A stretch of DNA of 24,000 nucleotides from the NCBI GenBank assembly GCA_002773575.1, contig PFAT01000003.1:29385-53384 (forward strand), given 5' to 3'. Below, one piece after another: positions 8,481 through 15,025 of this stretch. Origin of the DNA: Candidatus Falkowbacteria bacterium CG10_big_fil_rev_8_21_14_0_10_44_15 (GTDB lineage: Bacteria; Patescibacteriota; Patescibacteriia; Patescibacteriales; XYC2-FULL-47-12). The first letter of the stretch is position 1. Each line of letters starts with the position of its first letter. The position numbers and the translations under genes were made by a program. The notes beneath the pieces are model-generated. The model had not been told where the DNA came from. It saw only the letters and a list, made by a program, of their open reading frames with translations, and did not search any database.

Positions 8481-8726
8481 ATGGACAAACTGCAAAAAGA
8501 ATTCCGCGAACGCATTTCCGGATACATCATCGGCGCTTTTGGGCTGGTGGCGAGCTTAGCCTGGAACGACGCTATTTCCAGCTTAATCGAAAAAGTTTTT
8601 CCGTTTGGCAAAGATACCGTAATCGCTAAATTTGTTTACGCTTTAGTGATGACGATTATTTTAGTGATTATCGCGGCATATTTAGTGAAATTATTAAAGC
8701 GAGGCGGCGCCGGCGAGGGAAAGTAA
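8481..8726 (+). CDS. small two-TM membrane protein (conserved hypothetical)
   Basis: 81-aa ORF. GYIIGAFGLVASLAWNDAISSLI and a second TM segment VYALVMTIILVIIAAYLV. From memory it resembles an about 80-aa family (possibly DUF5654); this is unverified. Confidence 0.6.
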   Translation: MDKLQKEFRERISGYIIGAFGLVASLAWNDAISSLIEKVFPFGKDTVIAKFVYALVMTIILVIIAAYLVKLLKRGGAGEGK

Positions 8727-8736
8727 TAAAAAATAA

Positions 8737-8811
8737 ATCCAAACACCTTCACCGCCGGGTTTACCCCAACACCAAAATTTGGTGTGGGGGTATTCTGGAA
8801 GGTGTATGGAT
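8737..8811. repeat. 75-nt compound palindrome
   Basis: Outer arms atccaaacaccttc / gaaggtgtatggat pair at 13 of 14 positions. Inner arms taccccaacaccaaaa / tttggtgtgggggta form a near-perfect palindrome centred at 8777/8778. Confidence 0.6.
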
Positions 8812-8820
8812 AAAGCATTA

Positions 8821-8861
8821 AATAGAGCTGGCGTTCTTTTGGACGACAAGCTCTATTTTTG
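8821..8861 (+). terminator. rho-independent terminator
   Basis: aatagagct / agctctatt forms a 9-bp stem with a 19-nt partially paired loop, followed by TTTTG. Confidence 0.5.
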
Positions 8862-8877
8862 TTATGTTTAAATCATT

Positions 8878-9384
8878 ATGATAGTAATTTTGCACAATAT
8901 CCGTTCTAATCATAATGTCGGCTCAATTTTTCGCACGGCGGACGCGGCCGGTTGCGCGAAATTATACTTATGCGGCATCACGCCCGCGCCGATAGACCGC
9001 TTTGGTTTGCCTAACAAAGCATTAGCTAAAGTCGCTTTGGGAGCGGAAAAAACAGTCGTTTGGGAGCAAGTTAAATCAACTTTAGCAGCGCTGGAAAAAT
9101 TAAAGCAAGAGGGGTATACTATTATTGCGTTAGAGCAGGATAAAAGAGCGACTTCGTTGTTTAATATAGAGGCGGTACATAAATTGATCGCCGCCAAAAA
9201 GGACAAGGTAGCTCTAGTTTTAGGTGCGGAGGTAGGCGGGCTGCCGCCGGAAATTTTAGCGCAAGCCGACGTGATTTTAGAAATTCCTATGCGCGGCAAA
9301 AAAGAGTCGCTCAATGTCGCAGTTGCCTTTGGCATTACCGCTTACGCTCTCACCCCAACCCTCTCCCCTAGAGAAGGGGTATAA
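8878..9384 (+). CDS. SpoU/TrmH-family RNA 2'-O-methyltransferase
   Basis: 168-aa ORF. Motifs seen: NIRSNHNVGSIFRTADAAG, LVLGAEVGGLP and IPMRGKKESLNVAVAFGI (SPOUT knot motifs). The last 11 codons and the stop come from a repeat element. Confidence 0.85.
   Translation: MIVILHNIRSNHNVGSIFRTADAAGCAKLYLCGITPAPIDRFGLPNKALAKVALGAEKTVVWEQVKSTLAALEKLKQEGYTIIALEQDKRATSLFNIEAVHKLIAAKKDKVALVLGAEVGGLPPEILAQADVILEIPMRGKKESLNVAVAFGITAYALTPTLSPREGV
9349..9381 (+). repeat. GC-rich palindromic element copy (family A)
   Basis: ctcaccccaaccctctcccctagagaaggggta shares the CTCACCCC-ARCCC-CTCTCC module with the copies at 11775 and 12493. Confidence 0.6.
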
Positions 9385-9395
9385 ATAATTACTTT

Positions 9396-9671
9396 ATGTT
9401 AGGTAAACATTTAAATATAAAAATTATCGGTATGGTGCAGGGCATTGGTTTTCGTTACGCGAGCGAACAAAAAGCGCAGGAGTTGGGAATAGTTGGTTTT
9501 GTCCGGAATGAGCCGGACGGGTCAGTCTACATTGAAGCGGAAGGAGAGGAAGAAGCATTGAACAAGTTTGTCGCCTGGTGCCAGAGCGGGCCGCGGGGGG
9601 CGCAAATTAAAGAAGTAAAAGCGGTTAACGCCGCTATAAAAAATTTTCGTGATTTTTTAATTGATTATTAA
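9396..9671 (+). CDS. acyP: acylphosphatase
   Basis: 91-aa ORF. GMVQGIGFRYASEQKAQELGIVGFVRNEPDGSVYIEAEG matches the acylphosphatase signatures (V.G.VQGVGFR ... G.V.N..DG.V). Confidence 0.85.
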   Translation: MLGKHLNIKIIGMVQGIGFRYASEQKAQELGIVGFVRNEPDGSVYIEAEGEEEALNKFVAWCQSGPRGAQIKEVKAVNAAIKNFRDFLIDY

Positions 9672-9676
9672 ATAAT

Positions 9677-9704
9677 AAAAAAAGCCCCAGCGATGAAGCC
9701 GAGG
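9677..9704 (-). terminator. probable terminator of the minus-strand small gene
   Basis: On the minus strand cctcggc-ttcatc-gctgggg forms a 7-bp stem that includes two G-U pairs valid only on that strand, followed by CTTTTTTT. Confidence 0.45.
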
Positions 9705-9738
9705 TTAGTGGTAGCAGGATCTGAAATGATTTCCGAAA

Positions 9739-9969
9739 TTATTGGTTGAAATAATAATTACACACAAAGATCGGGATACTGATTAACATGATGATTATTC
9801 CGAACCAAAAAAGGTTTTTAAAAGAATTTTGTTGTTGTTTTTTGATGTCAGCATATCCATAAGTTCTGTCTGTGGATATAGCAGCTATCATTAATTCGGA
9901 AAATAATGTCAAGAAAAAGCCAGTAATAGCTAGGGCGCAAGCAAACTTAAAAACAGCCATTGGTGCCAT
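9739..9969 (-). CDS. small membrane protein, unknown function
   Basis: 76-aa ORF with two hydrophobic segments. AAGGAGA lies 6 nt upstream of the ATG on the minus strand. Confidence 0.5.
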   Translation of the reverse strand: MAPMAVFKFACALAITGFFLTLFSELMIAAISTDRTYGYADIKKQQQNSFKNLFWFGIIIMLISIPIFVCNYYFNQ

Positions 9970-10034
9970 CAGAGTTCTCCTTTTTTTTGTAAAGATGCCG
10001 TTAGCTTAAGATTTATTTTTAAATAAGTCAAGTT

Positions 10035-10304
10035 ATGGATTTATTAGAATTTAAGAAACAATTAGAACGGCAAGGAGAAACATATTTGCGCCTTAAAGTC
10101 CGGCCAAACGCCGCGGAGACGGCGGTTAAAGACAAAATGGACGACGAAACAGTTAAAATTGATATAGCAGCCAAGCCGGAGAAAGGCAAAGCAAACGCGG
10201 AACTGATTAAATTTTTAGCGCAAGAGTTTGCCGTAACTAAAGAAAATATAAAAATTATCAGCGGGGCGGGGGAGAGGGTAAAGTTGGTAAAAATTAAAAT
10301 ATAA
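10035..10304 (+). CDS. DUF167 (YggU-like) protein
   Basis: 89-aa ORF. YLRLKVRPNA...VKIDIAAKPEKGKANAELIKFLAQEF...ISGAGERVKLVKI follows the YggU/UPF0235 pattern. Confidence 0.8.
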   Translation: MDLLEFKKQLERQGETYLRLKVRPNAAETAVKDKMDDETVKIDIAAKPEKGKANAELIKFLAQEFAVTKENIKIISGAGERVKLVKIKI

Positions 10305-10333
10305 ATTTCGTGGTGATAAATTAAAACAACGAG

Positions 10334-10353
10334 ATCCCCGCCTGCGCGGGGAT
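10334..10353. repeat. GC-rich hairpin element (family B)
   Basis: atccccgc-ctgc-gcggggat is a perfect 8-bp stem inside an AT-rich spacer. A related copy lies at 18797-18814. Confidence 0.6.
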
Positions 10354-10369
10354 GACAGTTAAAGTAAAT

Positions 10370-11071
10370 ATGAATGATGGAGTTAAAAAGAAAATTCCTG
10401 TGCATGTCGGCCTAATCATGGACGGCAACCGGCGCTGGGCGCGCGAACGCAATTTGCCCCAATTGGAAGGGCATCGGCGCGGCTATGCCAAAATGAAAGA
10501 AGCAACCGACTGGTTTTTTTTGCGCGGCGTAAAAGTATTAAGCGTGTACGCTTTTTCGACCGAAAACTGGAGCCGAGCCAAAGAGGAAGTTAGTTACTTA
10601 ATGGCGCTGTTGGAGCAAGGCATTAAAGAATTGTCGGAAGATTTTAAAAAGAAAGACTATCGCGTGCTTTTCAGCGGACGCTTGGATGAATTGCCCGGAG
10701 AGTTGCCGTCCTTATGCGAAGAGGCGATGGAAAAAACAAAAACTAATTTGTCCGGCACTTTCAACATCTGTTTTAACTACGGCGGCCGGCCGGAATTGAT
10801 TGACGCCGTAAAAAAAATCATTAAGCATCAACTAACCGAAGAACAAATTCACGAAGGAATTATCCGCAAGTATTTGTACAACGGGCAGTTGCCCGATCCG
10901 GATATAATAGTGCGCACCGCCGGCGAACAGCGCTTGTCCAATTTTTTGCTTTGGCAGAGCGCCTATTCCGAACTGTTATTTTTTAAAAAATATTGGCCGG
11001 ATTTTGAAGAAATGGACGTGATTAACATTTTAGACGAATATAATAAGAGGGGGAGAAGATTTGGACAATAA
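10370..11071 (+). CDS. uppS: isoprenyl transferase (undecaprenyl-diphosphate synthase)
   Basis: Motifs seen: HVGLIMDGNRRWARERNLP, GHRRGY, AFSTENW, RTAGEQRLSNFLLWQSAYSEL. I prefer the ATG at 10370 because the track start at 10352 lies inside the hairpin at 10334-10353. Confidence 0.9.
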   Translation: MNDGVKKKIPVHVGLIMDGNRRWARERNLPQLEGHRRGYAKMKEATDWFFLRGVKVLSVYAFSTENWSRAKEEVSYLMALLEQGIKELSEDFKKKDYRVLFSGRLDELPGELPSLCEEAMEKTKTNLSGTFNICFNYGGRPELIDAVKKIIKHQLTEEQIHEGIIRKYLYNGQLPDPDIIVRTAGEQRLSNFLLWQSAYSELLFFKKYWPDFEEMDVINILDEYNKRGRRFGQ

Positions 11072-11096
11072 ATTTTCTAATTCCTAAGGGGCTTGA

Positions 11097-11125
11097 TTAG
11101 AAATTAGGAGTTAGAAATTTATAAA
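11097..11125 (+). promoter_or_regulatory. candidate promoter of rarA
   Basis: TTAGAA (11097-11102), 17 nt, TATAAA (11120-11125). The predicted transcription start falls at about the GTG start codon (11131). Confidence 0.35.
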
Positions 11126-11130
11126 TTTTT

Positions 11131-12369
11131 GTGTCGCAATATAATTCTACAAACTCAAGCGCTCCGTTGGCGGATAAAATGCGCCCTTTGGTTTTGGCTG
11201 ATTTCGTTGGGCAGGAAAAAATTATTGGGGCAGGAAAAATTTTACGGCTAGCGGTAGAACGGGACCGCGTGCCCTCTATTATTTTTTGGGGGCCGCCGGG
11301 TTGCGGCAAAACAACGCTCGCGCGCATCATTGCCAATCTGACGCAGGCGGAATTCGTGCCGCTAAGCGCGGTATCAAGCGGCGTCAAAGACATCCGGCGG
11401 GAAGCGGAAGCGGCGGCTAAAAGGCTGCAAGAAGGCAAAAAGACCATTATTTTTATTGATGAAATTCATCGCTTTAACAAAGGGCAGCAGGATGCTTTGT
11501 TGCCGCATGTAGAACGCGGCGTCATTACTTTGATTGGCGCGACTACCGAAAATCCTTCTTTTGAAATTATCTCGGCGTTATTGTCGCGCTGCCGCGTTTT
11601 TGTGCTGGAAAAATTAACCGCCGCGCATATTAAAAAGTTAGCGGAGCGGGCATTAACTAAAGAGCCAGTATTGCGGAGCATAAAAATTGCGCCGGACGCG
11701 TTGCAATATTTAGCCGAAATGTCGGACGGGGACGCGCGCGTCGCGCTCAATGCGCTGGAATTAGCGGCTCAAACCTCACCCCTAACCCCTCTCCTTAGTA
11801 AGGAGAGGGGAGTAATAGACAAAAAAATCATTGAAGAAGCGTTACAAAAATCACTTCTGTATGACAAGGCGGGGGAAGAGCATTACAACATTATTTCCGC
11901 CTTGCATAAATCAATGCGGGGCGGGAACGCGGATGCGGCTTTGTATTGGCTGGCGCGGATGCTAGAGGGCGGGGAGGACCCGCTCTATATTGCCCGCCGC
12001 TTGATCCGCTTTGCTTCCGAAGATATCGGTATTGCTAATTCCTTAGCCCTGCCGCAGGCAGTCGCGGCGTATCAGGCGTGCCATTACATTGGCATGCCCG
12101 AGTGTTCGGTAAATTTAGCGCAAGCGGTTGTGTACATGGCCAAATCAAAAAAAAGCAACGAACTGTATGTCGCTTACGGCAAAGCAGCTGCCGATGTAAA
12201 ACAATACGGCGCTCTGCCCGTGCCGCTGCACATCCGCAACGCGCCAACCAAGTTGATGAAAGAATTAAAGTACGGCAAAGGTTATAAATATTCGCCGGAG
12301 TATGATTATCGGGAGGAGCAGGAGTACTTGCCGCCGGAAATTAAAAATCATAAGTATTTTAATTTATGA
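11131..12369 (+). CDS. rarA: replication-associated recombination protein A (AAA+ ATPase)
   Basis: 412-aa ORF. Motifs seen: MRPLVLADFVGQ, Walker A GPPGCGKTTLARIIA, IFIDEIHRFNKGQQDALLPHVE, GDARVALNALE and ISALHKSMRGGNADAALYWLARML. GTG start. The stop overlaps the next ATG (ATGA). Confidence 0.9.
   Translation: MSQYNSTNSSAPLADKMRPLVLADFVGQEKIIGAGKILRLAVERDRVPSIIFWGPPGCGKTTLARIIANLTQAEFVPLSAVSSGVKDIRREAEAAAKRLQEGKKTIIFIDEIHRFNKGQQDALLPHVERGVITLIGATTENPSFEIISALLSRCRVFVLEKLTAAHIKKLAERALTKEPVLRSIKIAPDALQYLAEMSDGDARVALNALELAAQTSPLTPLLSKERGVIDKKIIEEALQKSLLYDKAGEEHYNIISALHKSMRGGNADAALYWLARMLEGGEDPLYIARRLIRFASEDIGIANSLALPQAVAAYQACHYIGMPECSVNLAQAVVYMAKSKKSNELYVAYGKAAADVKQYGALPVPLHIRNAPTKLMKELKYGKGYKYSPEYDYREEQEYLPPEIKNHKYFNL
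11774..11812 (+). repeat. GC-rich palindromic element copy (family A), in frame in rarA
   Basis: cctcacccctaacccctctccttagtaaggagaggggag. It contains a perfect 11-bp stem cccctctcctt (11786-11796) / aaggagagggg (11800-11810) with a 3-nt loop. Confidence 0.7.
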
Positions 12370-13553
12370 AAATCGCCGTTATTACGCCAACTTTTCCTCC
12401 TTACCGCTCCGGCATGGGCAAAAGCGCGTATGAAATCGCGCGGCTTTTCGCTACAAACAATGAAGTGACTGTTTTTACGCCAGAATATGAACCTCACCCC
12501 AGCCCCGCCTCGCCGGCAGGCAAGCCTCTCCTTATAAAGGAGGGGGAACCATCCGCGATGGAAATAAAATATCTAAAGCCCTTGTTACAGTTAGGCTTAG
12601 GCGGATTTGTCCCGGCGTTGTATAAACAATTAAAAAATTTTGACGCCATATATTTGCATTATCCTTTTTTTGGCACGGCTGAAATTGTCTGGCTATTTAA
12701 AATTTTTCACCCCAAAGTAAAGTTAATAGTTCACTTTCATATGGATACGCCGGCGTTAAGCTGGCGCGCTAAAATTTTAAGCCTGCCGTCCTTGATTATT
12801 AAAAAAAGTTTATTCAAGCGGGCGGATAAAATTATTTCCGCCTCGTTAGATTATGTGGCGCATTCCAGCGTTAAAAAATATTTTAAAGCTTGGCCGGAAA
12901 AATTCAGCGAAATTCCTTTTGGCGTGCATTTGGATAAATTCCATGTTTTGCCTTATGACATTATGGAACTGCAAGAGTTGCGGGATAAGTTAGGAATAAA
13001 GAAAGGCGAGCGGGTGATTTTATTTGTAGGCGCGCTTGATTCCGCCCATATCTTTAAAGGCGTAGAAATTCTTTTGCGCGCAGTATCTAATATTAAATAT
13101 TCAATATTAAATATTAAATTACTCATCGTTGGCGATGGAAACTTGCGCACTGATTATGAACATCAAGCGAGGGAATTAGGCATTGACAAATTAACTATTT
13201 TTGCCGGCAGAGTCAGCGATGAAGAACTGGTAAAATGTTATAATTTGGCGGATATTTTTGTTTTGCCTTCCGTTGACAAAAGCGAAGCGTTTGGGATGGT
13301 GCTGGTTGAAGCGTTTGCCTGCGGCGTGCCGGTAATGGCGTCGGACCTGCCCGGCGTGCGTTCGGTGTTTGAAAATGGAGTGCAAGGAATAACGGTCGCG
13401 CCCGGCAGCGTGCGGCATTTACAAAAAAAATTGGAGGAATATCTGCGTTATCCGCAGAAGCGGCTGAAAATGGGGAGAGCGGCGAGAGAACTTGTTGAGC
13501 AAAAGTATAGTTGGGAGAAAGTGGAGGAAAAGTTGCAGGCAATTTTCAATTAA
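12366..13553 (+). CDS. glycosyltransferase family 4
   Basis: 395-aa ORF. KIAVITPTFPPYRSGMG at the N-terminus and the EX7E region EAFGMVLVEAFACGVPVMASDLPG. Confidence 0.85.
   Translation: MKIAVITPTFPPYRSGMGKSAYEIARLFATNNEVTVFTPEYEPHPSPASPAGKPLLIKEGEPSAMEIKYLKPLLQLGLGGFVPALYKQLKNFDAIYLHYPFFGTAEIVWLFKIFHPKVKLIVHFHMDTPALSWRAKILSLPSLIIKKSLFKRADKIISASLDYVAHSSVKKYFKAWPEKFSEIPFGVHLDKFHVLPYDIMELQELRDKLGIKKGERVILFVGALDSAHIFKGVEILLRAVSNIKYSILNIKLLIVGDGNLRTDYEHQARELGIDKLTIFAGRVSDEELVKCYNLADIFVLPSVDKSEAFGMVLVEAFACGVPVMASDLPGVRSVFENGVQGITVAPGSVRHLQKKLEEYLRYPQKRLKMGRAARELVEQKYSWEKVEEKLQAIFN
12492..12548 (+). repeat. GC-rich palindromic element, long composite copy (family A), in frame in GT4
   Basis: cctcaccccagcccc + gcctcgccggcaggc (imperfect palindrome) + cctctcctt-ata-aaggagggg (9-bp stem with one G-U pair). 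Confidence 0.6.
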
Positions 13554-13572
13554 GAATTACGAATTATAAATT

Positions 13573-14793
13573 ATGAAAATATGCTTAATAAACAATTTAT
13601 ACGGCGAATACGCGCGCGGCGGAGCGGAAAGGGTCGTGGAGAATATCGCGACTGGTTTAGAAGAGGCAAAACATAAGGTTTTTGTTATTGCAACGCGGCC
13701 GATGATAGAGTTAAAAAGTTATAAAGTTAAAAGTAAAAAGCCACTTAATGACGAAATTTATTCGCCTCAAGCTCCTCACAACGACAGCAATGTCACTCGT
13801 CACTCGTCACTCGTTACCCGTCACTTTTTTTGTCCCTGGAACATAATTTCCTATTACAATCTGCATAAGCTGCCGGCAGCGTTAAAATTGCTTTGGCACT
13901 TGATTGATATGTTTAACATCCAGAGTTATTTTAAAATTAAAAAAGTTTTAAGGGCGGAGCAGCCGGATTTGGTGATGACGCATAATTTAACGGGGGTGGG
14001 ATTTTTAACGCCGCTTGCTATTAAACATTGCGGCATCAAGCGCATCCATACTTTACATGACATTCAGCTTTTGCATCCGTCCGGATTGATGATCGTCGGG
14101 CGGGAAAAAAAAGTTGACAGTTGGGCGGCGCGCATTTATCAATGGTGCACTAAAAAATTATTTAATTCGGTGGATGTGGTGATTTCTCCGTCAGCTTGGT
14201 TGATGCAAGAACATAAGAAAAGAGGATTTTTTGGAAAATCAAAGTGCATTATTTTACCAAATCCGATCATCAAGACCCCCTCTTATTCTCCCCCTTCGCA
14301 AAGGGGAGATAATGAGAAGTTTATTTTTTTGTATGTCGGCCAGCTTGAGCCGCACAAAGGCGTTAAATTATTATTTGAAGCGTTTAAGCAGTTAACCAAT
14401 GAAAATTGTGAATTATGGATTGTCGGCGCTGGCGCGGAAAGTAAGAAGTTAGGAATGAATATTAAATTATTAGGAAATAAAAACCATGACGAAGCGCAAA
14501 AGTTGATGCGTGAAGCAAACTGTTTAATCGTTCCGTCGTTATGCTACGAAAATCAACCAACAGTTATTTTGGAGGCGCGGCAAAATAACCTGCCGGTGAT
14601 AGCGTCTGACATTGGCGGCATACCGGAGATTTTAGACGCGGAATTTTTGTTTCAGGCAGGGAAGCGAGAAGATTTGGTTAAAAAGATGAGATGGGTTATA
14701 GAAAACTATGACGAAGTAAAAAAAATACCAAGCGCCGGAACGCAAAATTTTTTATCAGCGCGGAGTTATGTTGATAAAATATTAAGATTGTGA
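13573..14793 (+). CDS. glycosyltransferase family 4
   Basis: 406-aa ORF. Motifs seen: GGAERVVENIA, PDLVMTHNL, HTLHD and SLCYENQPTVILEARQNNLPVIASDIGG. Confidence 0.85.
   Translation: MKICLINNLYGEYARGGAERVVENIATGLEEAKHKVFVIATRPMIELKSYKVKSKKPLNDEIYSPQAPHNDSNVTRHSSLVTRHFFCPWNIISYYNLHKLPAALKLLWHLIDMFNIQSYFKIKKVLRAEQPDLVMTHNLTGVGFLTPLAIKHCGIKRIHTLHDIQLLHPSGLMIVGREKKVDSWAARIYQWCTKKLFNSVDVVISPSAWLMQEHKKRGFFGKSKCIILPNPIIKTPSYSPPSQRGDNEKFIFLYVGQLEPHKGVKLLFEAFKQLTNENCELWIVGAGAESKKLGMNIKLLGNKNHDEAQKLMREANCLIVPSLCYENQPTVILEARQNNLPVIASDIGGIPEILDAEFLFQAGKREDLVKKMRWVIENYDEVKKIPSAGTQNFLSARSYVDKILRL
13792..13826 (+). repeat. heptanucleotide tandem repeat (GTCACTC x3 plus two degenerate units) inside a CDS
   Basis: gtcactc gtcactc gtcactc gttaccc gtcactt, read directly from the sequence. 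It encodes VTRHSSLVTRH. Confidence 0.8.
14276..14320 (+). repeat. polypyrimidine/polypurine hairpin insert, possibly related to family A
   Basis: ccccctcttattctccccctt-cgca-aaggggagataatgagaag. The stem is ctcccc(c)tt/aaggggag with one bulge. It encodes KTPSYSPPSQRGDNEK. Confidence 0.4.
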
Positions 14794-14817
14794 TACTCTA
14801 ATTAAGAAATTTATAAA
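14788..14817 (+). promoter_or_regulatory. candidate promoter of tRNA-Thr
   Basis: TTGTGA (14788-14793, overlapping the GT4 stop codon), 18 nt, TATAAA (14812-14817). It shares the 16-nt block AGAAATTTATAAATTT with the rarA upstream region. Confidence 0.35.
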
Positions 14818-14836
14818 TTTTAAAGCAGTCGCTAGC

Positions 14837-14911
14837 GCCGAAGTAGCTCAGTGGTAGAGCAACTGTTTTGTAAACAGTAGGCCGTGGGTTCGAATCCCAC
14901 CTTCGGCTCCA
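14837..14911 (+). tRNA. tRNA-Thr (anticodon TGT), CCA encoded
   Basis: Manual cloverleaf: acceptor GCCGAAG/CTTCGGC, D arm GCTC-AGTGGTA-GAGC, anticodon arm ACTGT-TTTGTAA-ACAGT, variable loop AGGCC, T arm GTGGG-TTCGAAT-CCCAC, discriminator T, then CCA. Confidence 0.9.
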
Positions 14912-14915
14912 GAAA

Positions 14916-14947
14916 AAGGCGAGACTGTAAATCTCGCCTTTGTTTGT
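14916..14947 (+). terminator. rho-independent terminator after tRNA-Thr
   Basis: aaggcgaga-ctgtaaa-tctcgcctt is a perfect 9-bp stem followed by TGTTTGT. Confidence 0.7.
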
Positions 14948-14973
14948 AGCCAAAAGTTACTTTATGGTATAAT
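14944..14973 (+). promoter_or_regulatory. candidate promoter of the surface-protein gene
   Basis: TTGTAG (14944-14949), 18 nt, extended -10 TGgTATAAT (14965-14973). Confidence 0.4.
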
Positions 14974-15025
14974 ATAACTGTAGATAAAATAACAACCTAT
15001 GGTCATAACAATTTGGTGGCGCGCG

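What the first reader, a model, noticed from the sequence alone, without database searches (positions are those of the whole stretch)
11774..11812. GC-rich palindromic element sits in frame inside rarA, and the same DNA module is read in all three frames in three different genes (RPE-like)
Three loci share the module CTCACCCC-(N)-ARCCC followed by a polypyrimidine/polypurine hairpin. They are 9349-9381 (ctcaccccaaccctctcccctagagaaggggta), 11775-11812 (ctcacccctaacccctctccttagtaaggagaggggag, perfect 11-bp stem) and 12493-12548. Counting from each start codon, CTCACCCC is read CTC|ACC|CC in the SpoU methyltransferase (LTPTLSPREGV), C|TCA|CCC in rarA (TSPLTPLLSKERGV) and CT|CAC|CCC in the GT4 gene (EPHPSP...PLLIKEGE). 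So the conservation is at DNA level, not protein level. All copies have the same orientation relative to their host gene and none breaks the reading frame. In RarA the insert falls in the variable linker after the GDARxALN motif. This behaviour is what was described for Rickettsia palindromic elements, which insert in frame into coding genes. The purine arm (AAGGAGAGGGG / AAGGAGGGG) is also SD-like and is sequestered by an anti-SD-like pyrimidine arm.
Basis: partly seen in the sequence, partly recalled or inferred. Interest (0 to 1): 0.7.

Follow-up and report, generated by a model that had tools for sequence, protein, structure and literature searches.

The report
Triplex-type BoxC repeats inside genes
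The GC-rich module in rarA is a copy of the "BoxC / intrastrand-triplex" repeat, known in E. coli only between genes, but in this tiny-genome Patescibacteria lineage it sits in frame inside ordinary genes and is read in all three frames.

Summary
CTCACCCC occurs exactly three times in the window (0.2 expected), each time followed by a pyrimidine/purine hairpin, inside a SpoU methylase, RarA and a GT4 glycosyltransferase, read in three different frames. I found a fourth related copy in the next GT4 gene.

The module is not new and is not a Rickettsia palindromic element. It is the BoxC / PIT / "TM" intrastrand-triplex motif (Holder 2015). It has a 9-nt box, a 3-nt spacer, and a hairpin whose 5' arm mirrors the box. 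The rarA copy is CCTCACCCC-TAA-CCCCTCTCC-(TTAGTAA)-GGAGAGGGG. The E. coli copy is CCCTCACCC-TAA-CCCTCTCCC-loop-GGG(A/C)GAGGG.

Pattern scans found the same module across many bacterial phyla. E. coli copies are reported as always intergenic. Here every copy lies in a reading frame, at a variable linker or a C-terminus.

Orthologues show patchy presence, decay, opposite orientation, and unrelated elements at the same sites. Other Patescibacteria carry the motif in frame in IF-2, LeuRS, GluRS, UvrC, UvrD and Dus genes.

In rarA the blocks stay identical at synonymous sites while the loops drift. The spreading mechanism and any function are unknown. Verdict: a known repeat class in a new, translated setting.

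The parts
11774..11812 (+). Intact triplex-type motif in rarA. Box CCTCACCCC 11774-11782, spacer TAA 11783-11785, arm CCCCTCTCC(TT) 11786-11796, loop AGT 11797-11799, arm (AA)GGAGAGGGG 11800-11810. Translated as TSPLTPLLSKERG.
   Evidence: (strict finder: 9-nt blocks, 3-nt spacer, 7-nt loop). On the minus strand the sequence GGAGAGGGG-TTA-GGGGTGAGG(TT) allows 9-11 canonical purine-motif triads, read directly from the sequence.
9347..9381 (+). Degenerate copy at the 3' end of the SpoU gene. Box CTCTCACCCC 9347-9356, spacer AA, arm CCCTCTCCCC 9359-9368, decayed 3' arm with only CCCCT/AGGGG pairing. It replaces the last 4-5 codons and is followed by a new stop codon at 9382-9384.
   Evidence: Orthologues L002 and L246 end ...LTYN* and ...LINN* without it. 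L004 carries a different composite copy at the same place.
12492..12546 (+). Composite copy in GT4 gene 1. Box CCTCACCCC 12492-12500, then a 24-nt spacer with a nested CC(C/T)GCC...GGCAGG mini-hairpin 12501-12524, arm CCTCTCCTT 12525-12533, loop ATA, arm AAGGAGGGG 12537-12545. Translated as EPHPSPASPAGKPLLIKEGE.
   Evidence: L002 shares it with a perfect stem. L247 has a compact copy at the same protein site. L004 has nothing there, and L006 has an unrelated repeat-type insert.
14275..14316 (+). Fourth copy, not in the finding, in GT4 gene 2. Box ACCCCCTCT, spacer TAT, arm TCTCCCCCT, loop TCGCA, arm AAGGGGAGA, with the stem extending to 14316. Translated as TPSYSPPSQRGDNE. It lies in the inter-domain linker just before the Glycos_transf_1 domain.
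   Evidence: L004 has a different triplex-type copy (TACCTCCCC-CAG-CCCCTCCTT-GGT-AAGGAGGGG) at the same protein site.
11179..12369 (+). rarA/mgsA host gene. The start may be the GTG at 11131. The insert lies between the lid-domain helix carrying GDARVALNALE and the next helix.
8878..9384 (+). SpoU-family RNA methyltransferase host gene.
12366..13553 (+). GT4 glycosyltransferase host gene 1.
13573..14793 (+). GT4 glycosyltransferase host gene 2.

Best explanation
The module is a member of the BoxC / PIT / 'TM' class of G/C-rich intrastrand-triplex repeats.

**Architecture.** It has three blocks of about 9 nt:
- a pyrimidine box;
- a 2-5 nt spacer, then a pyrimidine arm that is the mirror image of the box;
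- a loop, then the complementary purine arm.

On the G-rich strand the order is hairpin, then TTA, then GGGGTGAGG. There the 3' block can fold back on the hairpin's purine arm through G.G-C, T.A-T and A.A-T triads.

**Proposed history.** Certain Falkowbacteria lineages gained many copies by a still unknown copying process. In these compact genomes (about 89% ORF in the window) copies land in genes. They survive only where translating through them is harmless: variable inter-domain linkers and C-termini, in whichever frame has no stop codon. They are then translated into Pro/Ser/Thr/Leu-rich plus Lys/Glu/Arg/Gly-rich coil.

The three blocks are kept at the nucleotide level, by structural constraint or by homogenisation between copies. 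Spacers and loops drift. Copies decay or are deleted, so these sites become indel hot spots.

**Shown:** the architecture, the family match, the cross-phylum spread, in-frame residence, patchy orthologue distribution, excess synonymous-site conservation, and the loop location in the protein.

**Inferred:** triplex formation (by analogy with E. coli oligonucleotide data), translation of the insert, selective filtering, and the reason for the orientation bias.
For: **Architecture and family**
- Searches give the three-block layout.
- The published TMECO consensus is CCCTCNCCC N3-6 GGGNGAGGG N3 GGGNGAGGG, with second-loop types TTA and CCG (PMC4666352).
- The reconstructed E. coli BoxC CCCCTCACCCTAACCCTCTCCCCAAAGGGGCGAGGGGAC is found at 100% identity. 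It matches all 5426 E. coli genomes, median 19 places each, with no annotated feature under the listed hits.

**Spread**
- A general pattern saturated the IMG/VR scan, hitting contigs of 37-73% GC.
- A Patescibacteria-style pattern saturated the GTDB scan. Hits came from Cyanobacteria, Bacteroidota/Ignavibacteria, Armatimonadota, Nitrospirota, Chloroflexi, Proteobacteria and Patescibacteria.

**Mirror constraint**
- The box register covaries with the arm register: 167 + 77 concordant against 22 discordant copies.

**Not chance**
- 8 strict GC-rich motifs occur in 118 kb of Falkowbacteria-like contigs, against 0 in 20 shuffles.

**In coding sequence**
- All window copies lie in ORFs.
- 7 of 17 Patescibacteria matches are clearly inside long ORFs, against about 2 of 62 cyanobacterial matches (my tally).
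- The hosts are real genes: Dus, FemAB, UvrD, UvrC, IF-2, LeuRS, GluRS.

**Dynamics**
- RarA, SpoU and GT4 orthologues with and without inserts are interleaved in the tree.
- TM-less lineages have none in 43 kb of syntenic DNA.

**Nucleotide constraint**
- 10 of 10 identical codons in the blocks against 54-59% in flanks, P about 0.002-0.005 per pair.

**Protein position**
- The AF2 model shows coil with pLDDT below 50 at the insert, between two helices.
- E. coli RarA has a linker of similar length at that place.
Against: - The literal TMECO regex is not met. The blocks are shifted one position: CCTCACCCC / CCCCTCTCC rather than CCCTCNCCC.
- E. coli copies are described as always intergenic.
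- No triplex has been shown in vivo even in E. coli, so the 'triplex' label is structural potential only.
- The shared 5' junction of the rarA insert in four lineages fits one old insertion plus repeated precise losses. It fits repeated gains equally well. No target-site duplication or mobilising gene was seen.
- The pairs in the synonymous-site test are not independent.
- The box/arm covariation counts copies, not independent events.
Confidence: 0.78

Rival explanations
1. It is a true mobile palindromic element of the RPE / MITE / REPIN kind. A dedicated enzyme would move it, and it would insert in frame into genes.
For: - Presence and absence differ between sister lineages, and the load is lineage-specific: 4 copies in the 24-kb window against 0 in 43 kb of TM-less relatives.
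- Different copies, and both orientations, occur at the same protein sites.
- Composite forms exist with a hairpin nested in the spacer.
Against: - The module is 37-56 nt, whereas RPEs are over 100 nt by my recollection.
- No target-site duplication is visible at filled versus empty sites.
- No transposase-like gene turned up among the eight window ORFs scanned or the precomputed Pfam labels of the called genes in relatives; the remaining window ORFs were not scanned.
- Holder et al. found no association of the E. coli motif with mobile elements.
- The same sequence across phyla with 37-73% GC is hard to explain by one element-specific enzyme.
Confidence: 0.12
2. It is a functional cis element kept by selection inside genes. 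One version is an mRNA hairpin that pauses ribosomes between domains or stabilises the message. Another is a DNA site recognised by a conserved protein.
For: - Synonymous sites in the blocks are conserved while loops vary.
- The copies sit at domain boundaries.
- All 11 Patescibacteria coding-sequence copies I tallied from the scan have the C-rich strand as sense (my tally).
- The hairpins are strong.
Against: - Sister lineages do without it. Copies decay (L249, L250, and SpoU in the window) and differ in sequence at the same site.
- PIT elements showed no promoter or terminator activity in E. coli.
- No start codon lies at SD distance from the purine arm.
Confidence: 0.08
3. It is an ancestral low-complexity protein linker, and the DNA resemblance between the three genes is chance.
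For: Orthologues at 77-95% identity carry similar peptides at the same RarA position.
Against: - The module is read in three frames.
- The 8-mer occurs 3 times against 0.2 expected.
- Strict motifs number 8 against 0 in shuffles.
- A Nostoc intergenic copy (L138) differs from the rarA copy at 1 of 40 nt.
- Most Patescibacteria RarA proteins have a short linker with no such peptide.
Confidence: 0.02

Closest known systems
BoxC / PIT element / TMECO intrastrand-triplex motif of E. coli and other bacteria (Holder et al. 2015, PMC4666352; Hoyne/Maher 2000 as cited there)
   Same: - Three 9-nt G/C-rich blocks: box, mirror arm, complementary arm.
- A 3-nt spacer (TAA on the C strand = TTA, the E. 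coli type A second loop).
- One central A/T position.
- Variable loops.
- Many dispersed copies, with local indel variability between relatives.
   Different: - The blocks are shifted by one position (CCTCACCCC / CCCCTCTCC), and the stem is extended by TT/AA.
- Copies lie in frame inside coding genes, whereas TMECO is described as always intergenic.
- Density is roughly 1 per 6-15 kb here, against about 1 per 250 kb in E. coli.
- The host is a Patescibacteria lineage, which as far as the sections I read show was not covered by the 2015 survey.
Rickettsia palindromic elements (RPE), from my own knowledge and as cited in PMC1779305
   Same: - Palindromic repeats found in frame inside protein-coding genes.
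- Tolerated at permissive positions.
- Patchy among orthologues.
   Different: - RPEs are several times longer.
- RPEs are confined to Rickettsia-type genomes, and I know of no box-plus-mirror triplex layout in them.
- No sequence comparison with RPE consensus sequences was run.
REP / BIME / REPIN elements with RAYT transposases (PMC3333891, PMC3116915, PMC3733652)
   Same: Short GC-rich hairpin repeats with a conserved short tag 5' of the stem, dispersed in many copies.
   Different: - REPs carry GTAG or CGTC tags, are extragenic and species-specific, and are linked to a RAYT gene.
- Here the tag is the mirror of the stem arm, the sequence is shared across phyla, and no RAYT was seen.
Small dispersed repeats (SDR) of Nostocales (Elhai et al. 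2008; from my own knowledge, only cited in papers)
   Same: - Very short (about 20-40 nt) structured repeats.
- They nest within one another and sometimes sit in genes.
- Nostocales genomes are rich in the very motif found here.
   Different: I could not read that paper, so whether any SDR family equals this motif is untested.

Membership tests
BoxC / PIT / TM intrastrand-triplex motif | Three consecutive blocks of about 9 nt. Arm 2 is complementary to arm 3 (a hairpin), and block 1 is the mirror of arm 2 (the third strand). | tested here: met
   - rarA copy: 9/9 hairpin (11-12 bp with the extension) and 8/9 mirror. The single difference falls at the consensus N position.
- GT4 gene 2 copy: met, with other block letters.
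- SpoU copy: 5' half only.
- GT4 gene 1 copy: met except for the spacer length.
BoxC / PIT / TM intrastrand-triplex motif | Loop sizes: 3 nt between the two like-strand blocks and 3-6 nt in the hairpin loop. | tested here: met
   - rarA: TAA (3 nt) and AGT (3 nt, with an 11-bp stem).
- GT4 gene 2: TAT and TCGCA.
- GT4 gene 1 fails, with a 24-nt spacer.
BoxC / PIT / TM intrastrand-triplex motif | Literal TMECO consensus CCCTCNCCC N3-6 GGGNGAGGG N3 GGGNGAGGG. | tested here: not met
   - The window blocks are CCTCACCCC / CCCCTCTCC / GGAGAGGGG, shifted one position.
- This register variant made up 167 of the 264 copies counted in the 2x2 test.
- The 5' half of the SpoU copy does follow the CCCTCNCCC register, with one mismatch.
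BoxC / PIT / TM intrastrand-triplex motif | Over-represented, multi-copy and dispersed in the genome. | tested here: inconclusive
   - 2 strict and 2 degenerate copies in 24 kb.
- 8 strict copies in 118 kb of related contigs, against 0 in 20 shuffles.
BoxC / PIT / TM intrastrand-triplex motif | Intergenic location (E. coli: 'always located intergenically'). | tested here: not met
   All four window copies, and all 8 strict copies in relatives, lie inside ORFs with Pfam-supported domains.
BoxC / PIT / TM intrastrand-triplex motif | Raised sequence variability at the locus among close relatives. | tested here: met
   Presence, absence, decay, inversion and replacement are all seen at the RarA, SpoU and two GT4 sites.
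BoxC / PIT / TM intrastrand-triplex motif | The single strand folds into a triplex in vitro (CD, NMR). | not testable with these tools
   Only the hairpin can be computed. Triad compatibility was read from the sequence: all 11 positions of GGGGTGAGGTT against AAGGAGAGGGG are G.G-C, A.A-T or T.A-T.
Rickettsia palindromic elements (RPE) | Element of roughly 100-150 bp belonging to the named RPE families. | tested here: not met
   - The copies are 37-56 nt.
- The length criterion comes from my own knowledge.
- No RPE consensus sequence was available to align.
Rickettsia palindromic elements (RPE) | In-frame residence in protein-coding genes at permissive sites. | tested here: met
REP / REPIN | GTAG or CGTC tag next to the palindrome, plus an associated RAYT gene. 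| tested here: not met
   - The tag here is CCTCACCCC.
- No Y1-transposase family appears among the eight window ORFs scanned or the precomputed Pfam labels of the called genes in relatives; the remaining window ORFs were not scanned.
- The rest of the genome was not seen.

The most novel reading that the evidence does not exclude
The triplex-type motif may be actively maintained rather than merely tolerated inside essential Patescibacteria genes. Three observations allow this:
- its three blocks resist synonymous change;
- the box and the arm shift register together;
- all 11 Patescibacteria coding-sequence copies I tallied from the scan place the G-rich, triplex-capable strand on the transcription template.

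This would point to a conserved DNA-level role shared across bacterial phyla. Candidates are a recognition site for an unknown protein, or a replication/transcription-coupled structure. Gene-embedded copies could then expose that role through their strand and frame constraints.
Probability: 0.15. Interest if true: 0.8.

Novelty: new variant of a known kind. Interest (0 to 1): 0.55.

Why it matters
BoxC / PIT / TM repeats were first found in the 1990s and occur in many bacteria, but they have no accepted function or copying mechanism. Published work treats the E. coli motif as always intergenic.

Finding them at high density in frame inside housekeeping genes of Patescibacteria has several consequences:
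- **Annotation.** It explains a recurrent class of odd Pro/Ser/Leu...Lys/Glu/Arg/Gly peptides and length differences in these proteins. That matters for annotation, alignment and structure prediction.
- **Insertion mechanism.** It supplies natural filled and empty sites for working out how the repeats arise.
- **DNA versus RNA versus protein.** It allows strand- and frame-based tests of whether the constraint acts on DNA, RNA or protein. Intergenic copies cannot give such tests.

If the motif is only tolerated junk, the result is still a useful caution. Several short structured repeat families colonise the same permissive loops in these genomes.

Tried and rejected
- **Rfam.** An E-value-mode search of 8500-15000 found nothing at any of the four copies, only a tRNA and weak chance hits.
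- **Source contig.** Exact look-up with the GTG start found nothing. The ATG start returned only a 2.3-kb copy. I therefore used relatives.
- **Collection scans.** Neither the source genome's copy number nor a total count could be obtained.
- **Covariance model.** I aligned 140 copies with MAFFT, but the variable loops left the 3' arm out of register, so I dropped the model. I counted the box and arm registers by regular expression instead.
- **SD / anti-SD sequestration.** Rejected. The nearest start codons are 14-17 nt or more from the purine arms, or absent.
- **Intrinsic terminator.** Rejected. No T-run follows any copy.
- **Target-site duplication.** Three filled/empty sister pairs were compared and none was seen. 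The first two C's of the box may belong to a host ACC codon.
- **G-quadruplex on the minus strand.** This is possible on paper (G-runs of 2, 4, 4 and 2). The NMR data cited for the E. coli motif favoured a triplex.
- **Literature.** Searches for in-frame repeats in CPR/Patescibacteria found nothing relevant.
Full report

Yes. CTCACCCC occurs exactly three times in the 24-kb window, at 9349, 11775 and 12493, all on the + strand. Shuffles give 0.20 expected, and none of 100 reaches three.

The rarA copy is followed by a perfect inverted repeat, 11786-11797 / 11799-11810. It folds at -20.4 kcal/mol as RNA (z -3.0) and -12.3 as DNA (z -3.8).

Pfam confirms the hosts as a SpoU methylase (8878-9384), RarA/MgsA (11131 or 11179-12369) and a GT4 glycosyltransferase (12366-13553). 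Counting from the start codons, the box is read as follows:

| Gene | Reading of the box |
|---|---|
| SpoU | CTC\|ACC\|CC |
| RarA | C\|TCA\|CCC |
| GT4 | CT\|CAC\|CCC |

All three frames are used and none is broken.

Amendments:
- The SpoU copy keeps only a 5-bp stem (z -1.6).
- The GT4 copy has a 24-nt spacer with its own small hairpin.
- A fourth copy with the same layout but different letters lies at 14275-14316 in the second GT4 gene: ACCCCCTCT-TAT-TCTCCCCCT-TCGCA-AAGGGGAGA.

**2. What is it?**

The source is Candidatus Falkowbacteria bacterium CG10_big_fil_rev_8_21_14_0_10_44_15, a member of the Patescibacteria/CPR.

The contigs ranged from 37 to 73% GC, and nearly all copies had a 2-5 nt spacer.

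Hits came from Nostocales and other cyanobacteria, Bacteroidota/Ignavibacteria, Armatimonadota, Nitrospirota, Chloroflexi, Elusimicrobia and Proteobacteria. Several Patescibacteria groups were also hit. So the module is spread across many bacterial phyla.

A literature search identified it as the BoxC / PIT / 'TM' intrastrand-triplex motif (PMC4666352). The published E. coli consensus is CCCTCNCCC N3-6 GGGNGAGGG N3 GGGNGAGGG, with second-loop types TTA or CCG.

Read on the C-rich strand this is box, N3, arm, loop, arm, which is exactly the layout of the window copy:

| Copy | Sequence |
|---|---|
| Window rarA | CCTCACCCC-TAA-CCCCTCTCC-TTAGTAA-GGAGAGGGG |
| E. coli BoxC | CCCTCACCC-TAA-CCCTCTCCC-C AAA G-GGGCGAGGG |

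I confirmed the E. coli sequence directly. The 39-mer CCCCTCACCCTAACCCTCTCCCCAAAGGGGCGAGGGGAC is present at 100% identity. It matches all 5426 complete E. coli genomes, with a median of 19 places each and no annotated feature under the listed hits.

**3. What the CTCACCCC box is**

The box is the mirror image of the hairpin's pyrimidine arm, not an independent tag. On the minus strand the window reads AAGGAGAGGGG-TTA-GGGGTGAGGTT. Folding the last block back antiparallel on the purine arm gives eleven G.G-C, A.A-T or T.A-T triads, read directly from the sequence.

The 'A' of CTCACCCC is the T of a T.A-T triad and falls at the N of the published consensus.

Among 284 distinct copies from the two scans, 264 entered a 2x2 test of register. 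The number of C's 5' of TCA in the box tracks the number of C's 3' of TCT in the arm. There are 167 copies with 2/2, 77 with 3 or more in both, and 22 discordant (Fisher P about 2e-44). These are copies, not independent events.

Stems extended by TT/AA are mostly preceded by A on the C strand. That is what a third strand on the G-rich side would need.

The triplex itself cannot be computed here. For E. coli it was shown for single-stranded oligonucleotides but not in vivo.

**4. What is different here**

TMECO in E. coli is described as always intergenic. Here all four copies lie inside ORFs. All 8 strict GC-rich motifs found in 118 kb of Falkowbacteria-like contigs also lie inside ORFs, and 20 dinucleotide shuffles gave none.

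Mechanical ORFs cover about 89% of the window (summed by hand). The copies are therefore not enriched in genes. They are simply not excluded from them.

In the GTDB sample, 7 of 17 Patescibacteria matches are clearly internal to long ORFs, against about 2 of 62 cyanobacterial matches (my tally). The ORFs are genuine genes: dihydrouridine synthase, FemAB, UvrD (which also carries an intein), UvrC, IF-2, LeuRS (two copies) and GluRS. One further ORF, from a genome of unassigned phylum, is a reverse transcriptase.

The encoded peptides include TSPPTPLLDKERG, TSPQPSPYKGEG, LTPSPSPYKGEGS and PHPDPLLIKERG. Again all three frames are used. All 11 Patescibacteria coding-sequence copies I tallied have the C-rich strand as sense.

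**5. Orthologue comparison**

Syntenic relatives were fetched.

*RarA.*
- Most Patescibacteria have a short linker after GDARxALNALE, for example ASQVAKKIDKK.
- The window and the relatives at 95% identity have the motif. So do P0014, P0015 and P0021.
- P0016 and P0020 have decayed versions.
- P0039 has it in the opposite orientation.
- P0021 has a second, inverted copy.
- In a neighbour-joining tree, carriers and non-carriers are interleaved as sisters: P0014/P0017, P0015/P0018, P0020/P0025 and P0039/P0034.
- Filled and empty sister pairs show no target-site duplication.

*SpoU.* The motif replaces the last 4-5 codons and supplies a new stop codon. The closest relative lacks it. L004 has a composite copy with another hairpin nested in the spacer.

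*GT4 gene 1.* The window and L002 share the composite copy. L247 has a compact copy at the same site. L004 has nothing there, and L006 has an unrelated repeat-type insert.

*GT4 gene 2.* The window and L004 carry different triplex-type copies at the same inter-domain linker.

*Lineage load.* The three lineages whose rarA is empty (L006, L251, L252; 43 kb) have no strict motif at all. The load is therefore lineage-specific, much as reported for Enterobacter strains.

**6. Constraint**

In rarA, the three blocks are identical in the window, L004 and L248 (80-83% protein identity). The spacer varies (TAA, CAA, CAG) and so does the loop (AGT, GCC, ATC).

Among codons for conserved residues, 10 of 10 in the motif are identical, against 54-59% in the rest of the gene. 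P is about 0.002-0.005 per pair, and the pairs are not independent.

This points to a nucleotide-level force. It could be structural selection, homogenisation between copies, or recent re-insertion. It is not protein-level selection.

**7. Position in the protein**

E. coli RarA (3PVS) aligns through this region with only a 2-residue gap, so a linker of this length is tolerated in the family.

An AlphaFold2 model (mean pLDDT 67.7) shows a helix at 186-199 and another at 215-225. Between them, residues 200-214 are mostly coil, with isolated strand-type residues. pLDDT is below 50 at 203-209, which is the insert.

**8. Mechanism**

My best reading is as follows.
- A structure-prone repeat class multiplies in some lineages by an unknown process.
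- In a compact genome it lands in genes and survives only at permissive loops and termini, in frames without stop codons.
- It is translated as flexible coil, keeps its blocks while the loops drift, and is lost by decay or deletion.

The strict C-sense orientation in Patescibacteria genes might reflect avoidance of a G-rich, triplex- or R-loop-prone non-template strand. That is inference only.

Rival readings are listed with their evidence in the rival-explanations section: a dedicated mobile element, a selected RNA or DNA cis element, and an ancestral peptide.

**9. Novelty and verdict**

The element class is known. Its in-frame residence at high density in housekeeping genes of Patescibacteria was not found in the literature I could search.

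I rate it a new variant of a known kind, of moderate interest. The RPE analogy describes the behaviour but not the family.

Noticed in passing
window 13792-13826 (inside ORF 13573-14793): A tandem heptanucleotide repeat, GTCACTC three times followed by degenerate GTTACCC GTCAC, encodes NVTRHSSLVTRH. The 7-nt unit is not a multiple of 3, so gain or loss of one unit would frameshift the glycosyltransferase, as in phase variation. L002 shares it; L004 and L006 do not.
   Followed up: partly
window 10334-10357: A GC-rich hairpin, ATCCCCGC-CTGC-GCGGGGAT, sits between the DUF167 gene and the undecaprenyl-diphosphate synthase gene and overlaps the first ATG of the latter ORF. Rfam gives only a weak match to a CRISPR repeat model (20.8 bits, gathering score 35). 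From memory it resembles another widespread short-hairpin repeat family, the one that yields '...PACAGMT'-type peptides.
   Followed up: no
window 8762-8792: A near-perfect 15-nt inverted repeat, TACCCCAACACCAAA / TTTGGTGTGGGGGTA, lies in the intergenic region upstream of the SpoU gene. It may be a terminator-like hairpin.
   Followed up: no
L006 2892-4067 and 4150-5481; L004 8172-8245; P0032 RarA: Other short GC-rich repeat families occupy the same permissive protein sites in relatives:
- CHCERNEVERSNP (ATTGCGAGCG...-type hairpin);
- SSQAPRNDK / VAPRNDS (GATTGCTTCG...CGCAATGAC);
- ARNVTHSVAGG, nested inside the spacer of a triplex motif;
- LPTGQAG (CCTGCC...GGCAGG).

So several repeat families, not one, colonise coding regions in these genomes.
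   Followed up: partly
L112 2575-2858 (IMG/VR contig IMGVR_UViG_3300020057_000061; also L024, L031 and possibly L120): The triplex motif occurs as part of a 72-nt tandem repeat with 4 copies at 93% match. Many further copies lie elsewhere on the same 43.5-kb 'viral' contig.
   Followed up: partly
L165 845-4228: A Moraniibacteriota UvrD helicase gene carries both an intein (Intein_splicing/Hint match at residues 273-639) and an in-frame triplex motif at residue 89.
   Followed up: no
L244 4399-5418: An in-frame triplex motif lies inside a reverse-transcriptase (RVT_1) ORF of 'Bacterium BMS3Abin15'.
   Followed up: no
window 14837-14908: A tRNA gene (Rfam tRNA model, 80 bits) lies between the second GT4 gene and the 858-aa ORF, which has no Pfam match.
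   Followed up: no
L002 7222-7324: A run of N's (masked or unresolved sequence) in the relative's contig lies just upstream of its SpoU gene. It produced false hits in my motif finder, which I discarded.
   Followed up: yes
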